Source: Mustelus asterias (lineage: Eukaryota). Taken from it: a DNA stretch of 64,000 bases. Both the position numbers and the translations under genes were made by a program. Shown here piece after piece: positions 16,620 through 64,000 of the stretch. The notes below the pieces were generated by a model. That model made no database searches, was not told the DNA's origin, and saw only the letters and a list, made by a program, of their open reading frames with translations. The DNA lies in assembly GCF_964213995.1 (NCBI RefSeq), contig NW_027590140.1:992001-1056000 (forward strand), read 5' to 3'. Position 1 is the first letter of the stretch. The number at the start of each line of letters is the position of its first letter.

Positions 16620-19245
16620 AGCATAGAAGCATAGAAGCATAGAAAAACAGCTCAGAAACAGGCCTTTTGGCCCTTTTTGTCTGTGCCGAACCATTTTATG
16701 CCTAGTCCCACTGACCTGCACTTGGACCATATCCCTCCACACCCCTCTCATCCATGAACCCGTCCAAGTTTATCTTAAATGTTAAAAGTGACCAACATTT
16801 ACCACTTTATCCGGCAGCTCATTCCACACTCCCACCATTCTCTGCGTGAAGAAGCCCCCCCTAATATTCCCTTTAAACTTTTCTCCTTTCACCCTTCAAC
16901 CATGCCCTCTGGTTTTTTTCTCCCCTAGCCTCAGCGGAAAAAGCCTGCTTGCATTCACTCTATCTATACCCATCAAAATCTTATACACCTCTATCAAATC
17001 TCCCCTCAATCTTCTACGCTCCAGGGAATAAAGTCCCAACCTATTCAATCTCTCTCTGTAACTCAGCTTCTCAAGTCCCGGCAACATTCTTGTGAACCTT
17101 CCCTGCACTCTTTCAATCGTATTTACATCCTTCCTGTAACTAGGTGACCAAAACTGTACACAATACTCCAAATTCGGCCTCACCAATGCCTTATATAACC
17201 TTACCATAACACTCCAACTTTTATATTCGATACTCCGATTTATAAAGGCCAATGTACCAAAGGCACTCTTTACGACCCTATCCACCTGTGACGTCACTTT
17301 TAGGGAATTCTGTACCTGTATTCCCAGATCCCTCTGTTCAACTGCACTCTTCAGAGTCCTACCATTTACCCAGTACGTTCTTCTTTGGTTTGTCCTTCCA
17401 AAGTGCAATATCTCACACTTGTCTGCGTTAAATTCCATTTGTCATTTTCAGCCCATTTTTCTAGTTGGTCCAAATCCCTCTGCAAGCTTTGAAAACCTTC
17501 CTCACTGTCCACTACACCTCCAATCTTTGTATCATCAGCAAACTTGCTGATCCAATTTACCACATTATCATCCAGATCATTGATATAGATGACAAACAAC
17601 AATGGACCCAACACCGATCCGTGCGGCACACCACTAGTCACAGGCCTCCACTCAGAGAAGCAATCCTCCACAACCACTCTCTGGCTTCTTCCATTGAGCC
17701 AGTGTCTAATCCAATTTACTACCTCCCCATGTATACCCAGCGACTGAACCTTCCTAACTAACCTCCCATGAGGGACCTTGTCAAAGGCCTTGCTGAAATC
17801 CAGGTAGACAACATCCACCGCCTTCCCTTCATCCACTTTCCTGGTAACCTCCTCGAAAAACTCTAATAGATTGGTCAAACATGACCTACCACGCACAAAG
17901 CCATGTTGACTCTCCCTAATAAGTCCCTGTCTATCCAAATATTTGTAGATCCTATCCCTTATCACACCTTCCAATAACTTGCCCACCACCGACGTCAAAC
18001 TTACTGGCCGGTAATTTCCCGGATTTCTTTTGGAACCTTTTTTAAACAACGGAACAACATGAGCCATCCTCCAATCATCCGGCACCTCCCCCGTGAATAC
18101 TGACATTTTAAATATGTCTGCCAGGGCCCCTGCAAGTTCAACACTAGCTTCCCTCAAGGTCCGTGGGAATACCCTGTCCGGTCCTGGGGATTTATCCACT
18201 CTGATTTGCCTCAAGACAGCAAGCACCTCCTCCCCTTTAATCTGTAACGGTTCCGTGTCCTCCCTACCAGTTTGCCCTATTTCCGTGGACTCCATGCCCG
18301 TTTCCTCAGTAAACACGGATGCAAAAAACCCATTTAGTATCTCCCCCATCTCTTTTGGTTCCATACACAGTCTACCACTCTGGTCTTCAAGAGGACCAAT
18401 TTTATCCCTCACTATCCTTTTGCTCCTAACATACCTATAGAAGCTCTTTGGATTTTCCTTCACTCTGTCTGCCAAAGCAACCTCATGTCTTCTTTTTGCC
18501 CTCCTGATTTCCCTCTTAAGTAGCTTCTTGCACTTTTTATACTCCTCGAGCATCTGATGTGTTCCTTGCTGCCTGTACATTTCATACAACTCTCTCTTCC
18601 TCTTAATCAGTGTTACAATCTCCCTCGAGAACCAAGGTTCCTTATTCCTATTTAGTTTGCCTTTTATCCTGACAGGAACATACAAACTCTGCACTCTCAA
18701 AATTTCTCCTTTGAAGGCCTCCAACTTTCCATTTACATCCTTACCAGAGAACAGCCTGTGCCAATCCACACTTCCCAGATCCCTTCTCATTTCATCAAAT
18801 TTGGCCTTTTTCCAGTTCAGAACTTCAACCCGAGGACCAGATCTATCCTTATCCACGATCAGGTTGAAACTAATGGCATTATGATCACTGGGTCCAAAGT
18901 GTTCCCTCACACTCACATCCATCACCTGCCCTAACTCATTTCCCAATAGGAGATCCAATATCGCATCCTCTCTAGTTGGCACCTCTATATACTGATGTAG
19001 AAAATTCTCCTGAACACATTTTACAAACTCTACCCCGTCTAAACCTTTAACAGTATGCGAGTCCCAATCTATATGTGGAAAATTAAAATCTCCTACTGTC
19101 ACAACTTTGTGTTTCTTGCAGTTGTCAGCTATCTCTCCACTGATTTGCTCCTCCAATTCTCGCTGACTATTGGGTGGTCTATAATACAAGCCCATTAATG
19201 TGGTCATACCTTTCCTGTTTCTCAGCTCCACCCATAGGGCCTCTG
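16620..19245 (-). mobile_element. Young CR1 LINE, ORF2 (partial APE endonuclease plus RT) with one frameshift near 17445
   Basis: ORFs 17366-19231 and 16896-17438: GDFNFP, SDHN, YRPVSLTS, FADDTK; (TTCTATGC)n tail. Confidence 0.97.
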
Positions 19246-26485: not shown

Positions 26486-26905
26486 ATGAATCTGTTCCAT
26501 TTTATTATGGTTCTACTAATTTGTAAGTGCAAGAAATTTACTCTATAACGTGTGGAGACTGCTATTTAAATACATTTTGCTCCAGTGCCTAATTGACTAA
26601 ATGTTTTTTTTTATAGATCGGTGTCGTTCGGACTAAGTTTCACAAACTCCCATAGCCAGAACAGCCCAGAGCGGGGATTCGGTGCGGCTAAACTGCAGCT
26701 ATGATATGTCCAGCATTTACAGAATGTATCGGTACAGAGAAAAACCCGGTCAAGGTCTGCAGTGGATAATACGTAGATTCTCGGATGGCAAAGAGAGAAA
26801 GGACCGATTCGAATTGGAACTTTCCACTGCGGACAAATCGAGCCAGTTGATGATTGAAAACACGGAGAGCACGGATACCGCTTTATATTACGGTGCGATA
26901 GAGCC
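26486..26905 (+). pseudogene. TCR alpha/delta-type V pseudogene (leader 26486-26522, intron 26523-26616, V exon 26617-26905)
   Basis: Leader MNLFHFIMVLLI plus phase-1 GTAAGT donor; D*VSQTP..GDSVRLNCSY..MYRYREKPGQGLQW..DRF..DTALYYGAIE; in-frame TAA, conserved Trp->Arg and second Cys->Gly. Confidence 0.9.
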
Positions 26906-26944
26906 CACACTGAGAGGAAAGACGGCAGTCACTGTACAAAAACC
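26906..26944 (+). other. 23-bp-spacer recombination signal sequence
   Basis: CACACTG + 23 nt + ACAAAAACC. Confidence 0.93.
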
Positions 26945-27174
26945 TCACGCCTGTTTACAGTTGCTGTAGCAATCAAATAAACAGCACACTGCAGGCAAGA
27001 CGTGTCAGAACGAGAACAGGAAATGGAGTATGTGAGCGCGGTTGCCAGGGCTTTGCAATTCCTGACAGCGGCTTTGCTCAGACATATTGACAGTCAGGGC
27101 ATAATTTATCAGATTGAAGAAGCAGTCACTCAGTGAGAGTGGGGTTTGTGATGAGAAAATCATCCGCATTCTTT

Positions 27175-51107: not shown

Positions 51108-51610
51108 TGACGTCATTCGGACTTCACAGTGACGTCACATGGCCGACAGTGTGACGTTACATATGCTCGCTTTCTGACGTCACAATACTCGATGCTCTGA
51201 CGTTGGGCGGCATGTTGGCACAGTGGTTAGCACTGCTCCCTCACAGGCAGGGACCCGGGTTCAATTCCAGCCTTGGGTCACTCTCTGCGTGGAGTTTACA
51301 CATTCTCCCTGTGCCTGCATGGGTTCCCTCCGGTGTTCCGGTTTCCTCCCACACTCCAAGGATGTGCAGGTTAGGTTGATTGGCCATGGTGAATTGGCCC
51401 CTAGTGTCAGGGTGATTAGCGGCGTAAATATGTGTAGTTAAGGGGAGGGGGCGTGAGTGGTACTGTGGTCGGTGCACGTTCAATGGCCGAATGGTGTCCT
51501 TCTGCACTGTCGGGATTCTATGATTCTGTGACGTTCAATGCCGGATGCTCTGACGTCAGAATGCCGGATGTTCTGACGTCACACTACCGGATGTTCTGTC
51601 GCATGCGCAC
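51108..51610 (+). promoter_or_regulatory. 22-23-bp minisatellite of CRE motifs upstream of a TCR V leader
   Basis: TGACGTCA or TGACGTT at 51108, 51130, 51152, 51175, 51198, [SINE], 51529, 51551 and 51574; ends in NRF1-like CGCATGCGCA. Confidence 0.75.
51205..51528 (+). mobile_element. HE1-type SINE with 7-bp TSD TGACGTT
   Basis: TGACGTT at 51198-51204 and 51529-51535 flanks the SINE. Confidence 0.9.
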
Positions 51611-51809
51611 TCTCCTCCCCCACACTATCAATGCTGAAGCTCCCTCACGGCTTCACTTTGTGATCACAAGTCCCAGCGACCCGGCTCACACAGCCATTGT
51701 GTGACTGGTTTGGTGCTCGGTTTGATATCCAATAGCATTCCTTTTCCAGGAGCTTCTCTCAGCCTGGAATTTGCTGACAGGTGTATCACATAAGTCGATA
51801 GGATCCAAC

Positions 51810-53917
51810 ATGTTTCTGAGCTTCACTTTTGTGATTATTTTCCTGGATTTCTTACTGTTCTCTCAGTCTAAGTGTGGTCACAATTTCTGACAGGAATATT
51901 TCACACCTCAGCAATGTTATGTTCTGTTAAATTGTACTCAGCTTGATTGTATTATCTCGAATTGTGAATACAATTGTACTTCATTGTGCGACATTATATT
52001 ACGATATGTTATTACTGCAAATGTACATATTCTTCCCAGATGCCGCTGGCAGTGAAGAGCTATCACAATCTCCGGAGTGAGTGGTTGTTACCGAGGGAGC
52101 CACTGCATCGTTGACCTGTTCAACCACAGTAGACAAGTCCTACAATGGTGCAGACAAAATCCTGACAGAACCATAGAAACCATAGAAAATTACAGCTCAG
52201 AAACAGGCCTTTTGGCCCTTCCTGTCTGTGCCGAACCATTTTATGCCTAGTCCCACTGACCTGCACTTGGACCATATCCCTCCACACCCCTCTCATCCAT
52301 GAACCCGTCCAAGATTTTCTTAAATGTTAAAAGTGACCCCGCATTTACCACTTTATCCGGCAGCTCATTCCACACTCCCACCACTCTCTGCGTGAAGAAG
52401 CCCCCCCCTAATATTCCCTTTAAACTTTTCTCCTTTCACCCTTAACCCATGCCCTCTGGTTTTTTTCTCCCCTAGCCTCAGCGGAAAAAGCCTGCTTGCA
52501 TTCACTCTATCTATACCCATCAAAATCTTATACAACTCTATCAAATCTCCCCTCAATCTTCTACGCTCCAGGGAATAATATTCAATCTCTCTCTGTAACT
52601 CAGCTTCCCAAGTCCCGGCAACATCCTTGTGAACCTTCTCTGCACTCTTTCAATCTTATTTACATCCTTCCTGTAACTAGGTGACCAAAACTGTACACAA
52701 GACTCCAAATTCGGCCTCACCAATGACTTATATAACCCTACCATAACACTCCACCTTTTATACTCGATACTCCGATTTATAAAGGCAAATGTACCAAAGG
52801 CACTCTTTACGACCCTATCCACCTGTGACGTCACTTTTAGGGAATTCTGTACTTGTATTCCCAGATCCCTCTGTTCAACTGCACTCTTCAGAGGCCTACC
52901 ATTTACCCAGTACGTTCTTCTTTGGTTTGTCCTTCCAAAGTCCAATATCTCACACTTGTCTGCGTTAAATTCCATTTGCCATTTTTCAGCCCATTTTTCT
53001 AGTTGGTCCAAATCCCTCTGCAAGCTTTGAAAACCTTCCTCACTGTCCACTACACCTCCAATCTTTGTATCATCAGCAAACTTGTTGATCCAATTTACCA
53101 CATTATCATCCAGATCATTGATATAGATGACAAACAACAATGGACCCAACACCGATCCGTGCGGCACACCACTAGTCACAGGCCTCCACTCAGAGAAGCA
53201 ATCCTCCACAACCACTCTCTGGCTTCTTCCATTGAGCCAATGTCTTATCCAATTTACTACCTCCCCATGTATACCGAGCGACTGAACCTTCCTAACTAAC
53301 CTCCCATGAGGGACCTTGTCAAAGGCCTTGCTGAAATCCAGGTAGACAACATCCACCGCCTTCCCTTCATCCACTTTCCTGGTAACCTCCTCGGAAAACT
53401 CTAATAGATTGGTCAAACATGACCTAACACGCACAAAGCCATGTTGACTCTCCCTAATAAGTCCCTTTCTATCCAAATATTTGTAGATCCTATCCCTTAT
53501 CACACCTTCCAATAACTTGCCCACTATCGACGTCAAACTTACTGGCCGATAATTTCCCGGATTTCTTTTGGAACCTTTTTTAAACAACGGAACAACATGA
53601 GCCACCCTCCAATCATCCGGCACCTCCCCCGTGAATACTGACATTTTAAATATGTCTGCCAGGGCCCCTGCAAGTTCAACGCTAGCTTCCCTCAAGGTCC
53701 GTGGGAATACCCTGTCCGGTCCTGGGGATTTATCCACTCTGATTTGCCTCAAGACAGCGAGCACCTCCTCCCCTTTAATCTGTAAAGGTTCCTGCAGCAC
53801 CTGGTGAGCGATCAGGGCAGGATCACGGCTCGATACAGTTTCGCAGAGAAACGCAGTGTTCTGAATGTCAGTGAACTGGACTGACAGACACCGCTACCTA
53901 GTTCTGTGCGATGGAGG
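51810..53917 (+). pseudogene. TCR alpha/delta-type V pseudogene split by CR1 (leader 51810-51867; V exon 52040-52172 plus 53792-53917)
   Basis: Leader MFLSFTFVIIFLDFLLFSQ with donor mutated to CTAAGT; EELSQSPE*VVVTEGATASLTC..VLQWCRQNPDRT|LQHLVSDQGRITARYSFAEKRSVLNVSEL-LTDTAT*FCAME. Confidence 0.88.
52173..53792 (-). mobile_element. Young 5'-truncated CR1 LINE
   Basis: ORF 52553-53800 encodes RT; nearly identical to 16620-18254. Confidence 0.97.
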
Positions 53918-53956
53918 CACAGTGGAGCAAAAACCATTTGGGGCTGTACAAAAACC
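53918..53956 (+). other. 23-bp-spacer RSS (consensus)
   Basis: CACAGTG + 23 nt + ACAAAAACC. Confidence 0.95.
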
Positions 53957-63699: not shown

Positions 63700-63738
63700 A
63701 GTTTTTGTACAGGGTTGGCGCTGTTTTCAATTACTGTG
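63700..63738 (-). other. 23-bp-spacer RSS
   Basis: CACAGTA + 23 nt + ACAAAAACT. Confidence 0.92.
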
Positions 63739-64000
63739 AGTCCCAGGGCGCAGTAATACACGGCAGCGTTAATCGGCTGCAAGTCCATGATGGTTAACCT
63801 TGTGGTGGAGTGTGACAGCTGCAGGTCTGAAGCAAAACGGTTTCCTAACGCCGAGCCTTTCCATTCCACGGTATCCCAAGACCTTCTCCATACAATAAAT
63901 TGGGGCTCCTTCGCTGGTTGCTGCAGGTACCAATGTACATAGTACCAACCTTCTGTAGTGCTATAGGTACATTTTATAGTCACGGCTTCACCTTCTCTCA
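63739..64000 (-). CDS. TCR delta/alpha variable gene segment (5' end beyond window)
   Basis: EGEAVTIKCTYS..YVHWYLQQPAKEPQFI..NRF..LTI..AAVYYCALG: both Cys and the Trp are intact, open frame, followed by RSS. Confidence 0.92.

What the first reader, a model, noticed from the sequence alone, without database searches (positions are those of the whole stretch)
51108..51610. Helically phased CRE minisatellite as a putative V-gene promoter or enhancer
Seen: CRE cores at 22, 22, 23 and 23 bp spacing, then a SINE whose TSD is the core itself (TGACGTT), then 22, 23 and 23 bp spacing. This gives about eight units, five with perfect TGACGTCA, ending in an NRF1-like CGCATGCGCA about 200 bp before a V leader ATG. 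The CRE cores are better conserved than the spacers and keep their CpG. Knowledge: mammalian TCR V promoters use CRE/ATF motifs, usually single. Inference: tandem amplification at about two helical turns built a multimerised CREB/ATF platform, an architecture I do not recognise as described for TCR V genes. This is the strongest regulatory novelty in the window.
Basis: partly seen in the sequence, partly recalled or inferred. Interest (0 to 1): 0.7.

Follow-up and report, generated by a model that had tools for sequence, protein, structure and literature searches.

The report
Multiplied CRE sites, shark TCR promoter
One family of shark T-cell-receptor V genes carries a tandem repeat of CREB-type binding sites upstream of each gene, likely an ordinary promoter site multiplied by repeat slippage rather than a helically phased design, and the copy in this window sits in front of a dead gene.

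Summary
The array is real and sits where stated. It belongs to one TCR alpha/delta-type V family: 55 of 58 family loci carry a multi-unit array, 0 of 77 loci of other V families do, and all 81 exact genome hits of the unit lie at family loci. It is not a transposon part. The window's own V gene is a pseudogene (dead splice donor, stop, frameshifts, LINE insertion). Across eight lineages three CRE cores are far better conserved than flanks (3 changes, about 18 expected), which points to selection on roughly three CREB/ATF sites; other cores decay. Phasing is not supported: 23 bp slips 69 degrees per unit, spacings run 15-48 bp, and three different insertions split the array. In the youngest clade (about 1% divergent) unit number varies 2-8, a VNTR. 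The NRF1-like and ETS-like motifs are not family-wide. An unrelated 58-copy CRE minisatellite lies elsewhere in the genome with no sign of a promoter. Best reading: the known TCR V-promoter CRE, multiplied by slippage. No binding or reporter data. The scan noted a similar array before in another genome (unchecked).

The parts
51108..51197 (+). Distal half of the array: four 22-23 bp units (cores TGACGTCA, TGACGTCA, TGACGTTA, TGACGTCA). The cores at 51108 and 51175 are two of the three family-wide conserved CREs
51198..51204 (+). TGACGTT, left copy of the likely target-site duplication
51205..51528 (+). High-copy SINE-like insertion, one event shared by a 29-row clade; 8 other matches in the window at 70-79% identity
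51529..51596 (+). Proximal half: right duplication copy plus two perfect 23-bp units. This segment is the VNTR (2-8 units in paralogues); the core at 51574 is the third conserved CRE, 236 bp before the ATG
51597..51609 (+). Degenerate terminal unit TGTCGCATGCGCA containing the NRF1-like stretch; 213-215 bp before the ATG in 7 of 8 lineages, 204 in the eighth
51610..51809 (+). Proximal promoter / 5' UTR, shared by the family; start of transcription not mapped
51810..51867 (+). Leader exon (58 nt); the donor after it reads CTAAGT instead of GT
52040..52168 (+). 5' part of V exon with in-frame TGA at 52078 and a small deletion
52169..53795 (-). Truncated LINE (reverse transcriptase fragment, Pfam RVT_1 E 7.9e-34) inserted antisense in the V exon
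53796..53917 (+). 3' part of V exon, with deletions and a stop
53918..53956 (+). Canonical 23-bp-spacer recombination signal

Best explanation
The array is a family-specific tandem repeat upstream of one shark TCR alpha/delta-type V family, in which about three conserved CRE sites likely act as CREB/ATF-bound promoter elements while the surplus units likely come and go by slippage. Shown: V linkage, family restriction, age (older than the SINE), core constraint, copy-number turnover, pseudogene state of the window copy. Inferred: an ancestral single CRE, like the TRBV CRE/decamer of mammals, was duplicated into about five units plus a terminal half-site; CREB/ATF binding supports germline transcription and access for RAG, then transcription of the rearranged gene; spacing is free; the SINE cut the array in one clade and the proximal half re-expanded.
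For: All 81 exact hits of the 20-mer unit are at family loci: 79 within 800 bp of a family V exon, 2 before a leader-only relic; reversed control 0. All 77 matches of a SINE-free promoter lie on V-bearing contigs. 55 of 58 family loci have a multi-unit array. On a fixed tree of 8 lineages, cores U1, U3 and the last full core show 3 changes in 24 columns against 17.8 expected at the intron rate (Poisson p 2e-5; three of five picked after the fact, so about 2e-4). Only 15 of 472 flanking 8-column windows are as conserved; 3 of 5 cores are (binomial p 3e-4). Core CpG kept in 32 of 37 cells against 31 of 56 in the proximal flank. Among 24 gap-free units chosen by spacer alone, non-CpG core positions match 139 of 144, spacers 241 of 288. 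45 of 56 family exons span the domain without stops. One contig in a run guessed to be RNA joins leader to V across a GT..AG intron. A CRE in TRBV promoters is documented for cattle, human and mouse (PMC2685407 passages).
Against: All five position-matched cores together are only weakly below the intron rate (21 vs 29.7 changes, p 0.06). Core vs spacer CpG retention in the 24 units is 18 vs 10, p 0.057. Units share ancestry and unit orthology is assumed from position, so p values are optimistic. Two ORF-intact members have lost the array (L025, L145) and lineage D keeps one perfect site. The nearest CRE is 236 bp from the ATG, further than the 80-120 bp reported for TRBV. A 58-copy perfect-CRE minisatellite lies on contig C5 with no CpG island or gene seen around it, so such arrays arise without evident function. 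74 of 77 other V loci have no perfect CRE in the stretch read. No binding, chromatin or start-site data.
Confidence: 0.6

Rival explanations
1. Dosage dial: the number of CRE units sets promoter strength and thereby how often each near-identical V paralogue is rearranged or expressed.
For: Perfect CRE count ranges 3-11 (0 in one) among 18 paralogues about 1% apart, unit number after the SINE 2-8. Re-expansion happened on the gene-proximal side of the SINE. In human TRIB3 the copy number of a C/EBP-ATF-bearing 33-bp repeat raises expression (PMC7425993 abstract).
Against: No usage data. Large ORF-intact clades stay at 2-3 perfect sites. Near-identical units are expected to slip whether useful or not, as the C5 array shows.
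Confidence: 0.2
2. Neutral minisatellite: the array is carried along by V-gene duplication and the cores look conserved through homogenisation, methylation protection or choice of units.
For: Independent CRE minisatellite at C5; genome-wide CRE pairs at 21-24 bp (178) are fewer than the reversed control (505); pseudogene copies keep 3-5 perfect sites; all-core test p 0.06.
Against: Homogenisation would spare spacers too, yet they change faster than flanks; non-CpG core positions are conserved; units were chosen by spacer or by position, not by core.
Confidence: 0.13
3. Helically phased CREB/ATF platform: two-turn spacing puts all dimers on one face and is itself the selected feature.
For: 173 of 218 neighbouring-core distances under 60 bp in 40 loci are 22 or 23 bp.
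Against: At 10.5 bp per turn 22 bp slips 34 degrees and 23 bp 69 degrees per unit; only 8 of 218 distances are 21 bp, 24 are 15 bp; the conserved perfect cores of SINE-free clades lie 44 and 46 bp apart (69 and 137 degrees off). Three different insertions split the array. Regular spacing follows from tandem duplication alone.
Confidence: 0.05

Closest known systems
CRE/decamer motif of mammalian TRBV promoters (PMC2685407, passages read)
   Same: TGAnnTCA core upstream of a TCR V leader, present in some V subgroups and absent from others
   Different: Here alpha/delta-type V of a shark; 1-11 perfect palindromes in a tandem array 236-700 bp before the ATG, against one motif at about 80-120 bp
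TRIB3 promoter 33-bp VNTR with a C/EBP-ATF site (PMC7425993, abstract read)
   Same: Tandem repeat whose unit holds a bZIP site, variable copy number, promoter position
   Different: There variation is between alleles of one gene and the effect is shown; here it is between paralogous V segments and no effect is shown
ETS-CRE composite motif (PMC3464117, abstract read)
   Same: An ETS-like CCGGATGT precedes the CRE in young units
   Different: The known motif needs exact overlap of the two sites; here three extra bases separate them and only 4 of 24 units keep the ETS-like word
Viral CRE repeats: HTLV-1 21-bp and cytomegalovirus 19-bp repeats (recalled, no call)
   Same: Multimerised CRE cores in short repeats driving transcription
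   Different: Viral, mostly not head-to-tail; no sequence relation tested
Elasmobranch antigen-receptor complex with TCR alpha/delta and NAR-TCR (PMC12227049, abstract and section 6 read)
   Same: Genomic setting: many TCR alpha/delta-type V exons, NAR-TCR-like V nearby
   Different: The paper has no occurrence of 'promoter' or 'CREB' in its main text

Membership tests
TCR alpha/delta V gene segment | V-set domain closest to TCR alpha/delta V | tested here: met
   Pfam V-set E 6e-12; best PDB hits are TCR alpha V, using intact paralogue L003
TCR alpha/delta V gene segment | Leader exon, intron, V exon, 23-spacer RSS | tested here: met
TCR alpha/delta V gene segment | Functional open frame in the window copy | tested here: not met
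   CT donor, TGA at 52078, deletions, LINE insertion
TCR alpha/delta V gene segment | Joins J-alpha or D-delta/J-delta | not tested
   The one spliced contig ends inside V; alpha versus delta use is open
TCR V-promoter CRE | CRE core upstream of the leader, conserved among paralogues | tested here: met
TCR V-promoter CRE | Position about 80-120 bp upstream as in TRBV | tested here: not met
   nearest core 236 bp before ATG; start site unknown
TCR V-promoter CRE | Binds CREB/ATF and is needed for promoter activity | not testable with these tools
   needs binding and reporter assays
Promoter VNTR | Head-to-tail units with variable copy number | tested here: met
   2-8 units among 28 SINE-bearing loci; variation is between paralogues, allelic variation not resolved
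Promoter VNTR | Copy number changes expression | not testable with these tools
   no raw RNA reads available
Helically phased multimer | Spacing at whole helical turns, conserved | tested here: not met
Transposon-borne repeat | Dispersed, unlinked to V genes, high copy | tested here: not met
ETS-CRE composite motif | Exact overlap CCGGAAGTGACGTCA | tested here: not met
NRF1 site | 12-bp palindrome kept across the family (consensus recalled) | tested here: not met
   10 of 12 bases at best; broken in lineage G, which is ORF-intact

The most novel reading that the evidence does not exclude
A mutable CRE repeat acts as a dosage dial on the T-cell repertoire: dozens of near-identical shark V segments differ mainly in the number of promoter CREs (2 to 11), and that number sets how often each is opened for recombination, so repertoire bias evolves by repeat slippage rather than by coding change.
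Probability: 0.2. Interest if true: 0.65.

Novelty: new variant of a known kind. Interest (0 to 1): 0.38.

Why it matters
What sets V-segment usage is an old question, and promoter strength is hard to separate from position, RSS and coding sequence. Here about 18 paralogues roughly 1% apart differ in CRE number, with array-less members as natural controls, so one repertoire data set could test the promoter's share. It also suggests CRE-based TCR V promoters exist in cartilaginous fish. If copy number has no effect, it is an ordinary promoter minisatellite around a known motif.

Tried and rejected
Transposon origin of the unit: rejected (contig depth over the units is like the V exon, about four orders below the SINE, a rough measure). 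Capture of a zinc-finger-gene promoter: no match outside V-bearing contigs among 77 (40 of 63 candidates scored), so no support. Helical phasing: rejected. ETS and NRF1 as family features: rejected. General feature of shark V promoters: 0 of 60 loci and 0 of 17 have two perfect CREs; in several of the 17 the leader was not located, so their promoters may lie outside the stretch read. Naming the family from protein databases: one unnamed hit. Expression and start site: no RNA holder listed on record; only contigs, which cannot show a start. Other shark genomes are not held, so cross-species conservation was not tested; look-ups by sequence and by relatives in earlier findings were blank. The gapped unit alignment gave stronger CpG contrasts but had alignment artefacts and was set aside for gap-free units. 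The original papers on the TRBV decamer, shark VH promoters and the sandbar shark TCR gamma locus were not held.

Full report
Observation. Five cores are perfect TGACGTCA; the window has 8 in all against 0.75 expected. TRF reports both halves with period 23. TGACGTT lies on both sides of the SINE.

The gene. An intact paralogue is a V-set domain whose best solved relatives are TCR alpha V domains. It has a 58-nt leader, a short intron and a 23-spacer RSS. Neighbouring DNA holds other TCR V types and a segment I recognise from memory as NAR-TCR-like, which fits the shark alpha/delta region described in PMC12227049 (section 6). The window's copy is dead: donor CTAAGT, TGA at 52078, small deletions, and a 1.6-kb antisense LINE fragment in the exon. 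The family has 56 exon matches at 66% identity or more, with a gap to the next family at 49% or less; 45 span the domain without stops. Some are allelic or duplicated assembly copies. One contig from a run guessed to be RNA, under another organism code, joins leader to V over a GT..AG intron, a hint that relatives are transcribed; it starts 18 nt before the ATG and does not show the start site.

Linkage and specificity. A 20-base pattern of the unit has 81 exact hits in 3.68 Gb, reversed control 0; 79 lie within 800 bp of a family V exon and 2 before a leader-only relic. Of 58 family loci read, 55 have a multi-unit array, one keeps a single unit and two have lost it. Of 77 loci from other V families none has two perfect CREs upstream: 0 of 60 have any in 1.5 kb, 3 of 17 have one. 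CRE minisatellites do arise elsewhere: of 178 genome-wide CRE pairs at 21-24 bp (control 505), 100 fall in 40 family loci and 49 in one unrelated 22-bp array of 58 perfect sites on contig C5, where I saw no CpG island or gene.

History. A tree of 55 rows built from sequence downstream of the array (three rows with foreign tails have unreliable long branches) puts all SINE-bearing copies in one clade of 29 rows (100/100). SINE-free lineages carry five or six units plus the terminal unit, so the array is older than the SINE. Two other lineages have different insertions inside the array. In SINE-free clades the usual pattern is perfect, decayed, perfect, decayed, perfect, with perfect cores 44 and 46 bp apart. 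In the youngest 18 rows, about 1% apart, the segment after the SINE has 2 to 8 units and total perfect CREs run 3 to 11, with 0 in L025. That is ongoing slippage.

Constraint. Among 24 distinct gap-free units admitted by spacer similarity only, non-CpG core positions match consensus 139 of 144 times and spacer positions 241 of 288; the CRE is the best of 23 possible 8-base windows; core CpG is intact in 18 and spacer CpG in 10 (p 0.057). Counting each variant once gives 5 of 18 against 21 of 36, p 0.046 (23 units). On a fixed tree of one representative for each of 8 lineages, five position-matched cores show 21 changes against 29.7 expected from the intron (p 0.06); three of them show 3 against 17.8 (p 2e-5 before, about 2e-4 after allowing for the choice). 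Lineage D lacked two units and one lineage-H spacer was left out; the first spacer was aligned without gaps, which inflates its count. Only 15 of 472 flank windows are as conserved. So about three CREs look selected and the rest are free. Shared ancestry and conversion between paralogues make these p values optimistic.

Phasing. Taking 10.5 bp per turn (established value, recalled), 21 bp is in phase, 22 bp slips 34 degrees and 23 bp 69 degrees per unit, so five 23-bp units wind once around the helix. Of 218 neighbouring distances 115 are 23, 58 are 22, 24 are 15 and 8 are 21. With the insertions and copy-number changes, nothing suggests selected geometry. The NRF1-like stretch is the decayed terminal unit and is broken in a large ORF-intact clade. 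The ETS-like spacer word is intact in 4 of 24 units and does not have the exact overlap that the ETS-CRE motif needs (PMC3464117 abstract).

Mechanism. Most likely (0.6) an ancestral V-promoter CRE was duplicated in tandem; about three sites bind CREB/ATF and help open and transcribe the segment; surplus units are turned over by slippage, and after the SINE split the array the proximal half re-expanded. Binding, activity and any effect on recombination are inferred. A dosage effect of unit number (0.2), full neutrality (0.13) and phasing (0.05) are the rivals.

Comparison with print. A CRE in TRBV promoters is known (PMC2685407 passages); a bZIP-site VNTR that tunes expression is known for TRIB3 (abstract). 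Passages of the nurse shark TCR alpha paper contain no 'promoter' (PMC5931798); PMC2435157 notes that shark IgH lack the octamer (passage). Nine searches (listings only) showed no paper on a CRE tandem array in a TCR V promoter, but the library lacks most subscription journals and the older key papers, and no supplements were read. Earlier notes of this scan describe a 22-bp CRE repeat before a dead shark TCR V gene in another genome, a minisatellite promoter of shark TCR beta genes, and a 28-bp CRE repeat at zinc-finger genes in this genome; I could not check them.

Verdict. Real, family-wide, partly under selection, not phased, and at this locus attached to a pseudogene. A new variant of two known kinds, worth a moderate score because the paralogue series makes the effect of promoter dosage on V usage directly testable. 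Interest 0.38.

Noticed in passing
G000:C71 about 6.5-19.4 Mb and dozens of smaller contigs: Very large V repertoire: each protein search gave 1000-1200 candidates and 150 scored matches, many as identical pairs on different contigs (haplotype or segmental duplicates).
   Followed up: no
window 16627-18254 and 52169-53795: Two copies of the same truncated LINE, 96.6% identical over 1.6 kb with matching ends, 35 kb apart.
   Followed up: partly
L111 (G000:C5:136134405-136135960): Unrelated 22-bp minisatellite with 58 perfect CREs, each followed by ATTGG (reverse CCAAT), among repeat-like DNA.
   Followed up: partly
window 51655-51672: Near-palindrome around TTGTGATCACAA in the proximal region, kept in 7 of 8 lineages; possible factor site or initiator.
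   Followed up: partly
L049 (G000:C71:12854083-12855159): Near-identical twin of the window's pseudogene with a deletion of about 50 bp in the proximal region.
   Followed up: partly
L145 (G000:C3978:20600-22500): ORF-intact family member whose upstream region is replaced by a long 14-bp G-rich satellite.
   Followed up: no
L048:5267-5524 and L048:1476-1712: NAR-TCR-like V and supporting-delta-like V segments about 35 kb before the window (labels recalled; Pfam V-set for the first).
   Followed up: partly
G000:C71:19363814-19397191: At least 11 related V exons in tandem at about 2.46-kb period.
   Followed up: no
window 26616-26950 (+) and 63700-64000 (-): Two more V segments with RSS: a pseudogene and an apparently open one on the minus strand; neither has a CRE array.
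   Followed up: partly
L003:2019-2291: The family's V domain is several residues shorter than mammalian TCR alpha V around CDR2.
   Followed up: no
L030-L032, L038-L040, window 51205-51528: Three independent insertions landed within the 150-bp array, which may mean it is open chromatin in the germ line.
   Followed up: no
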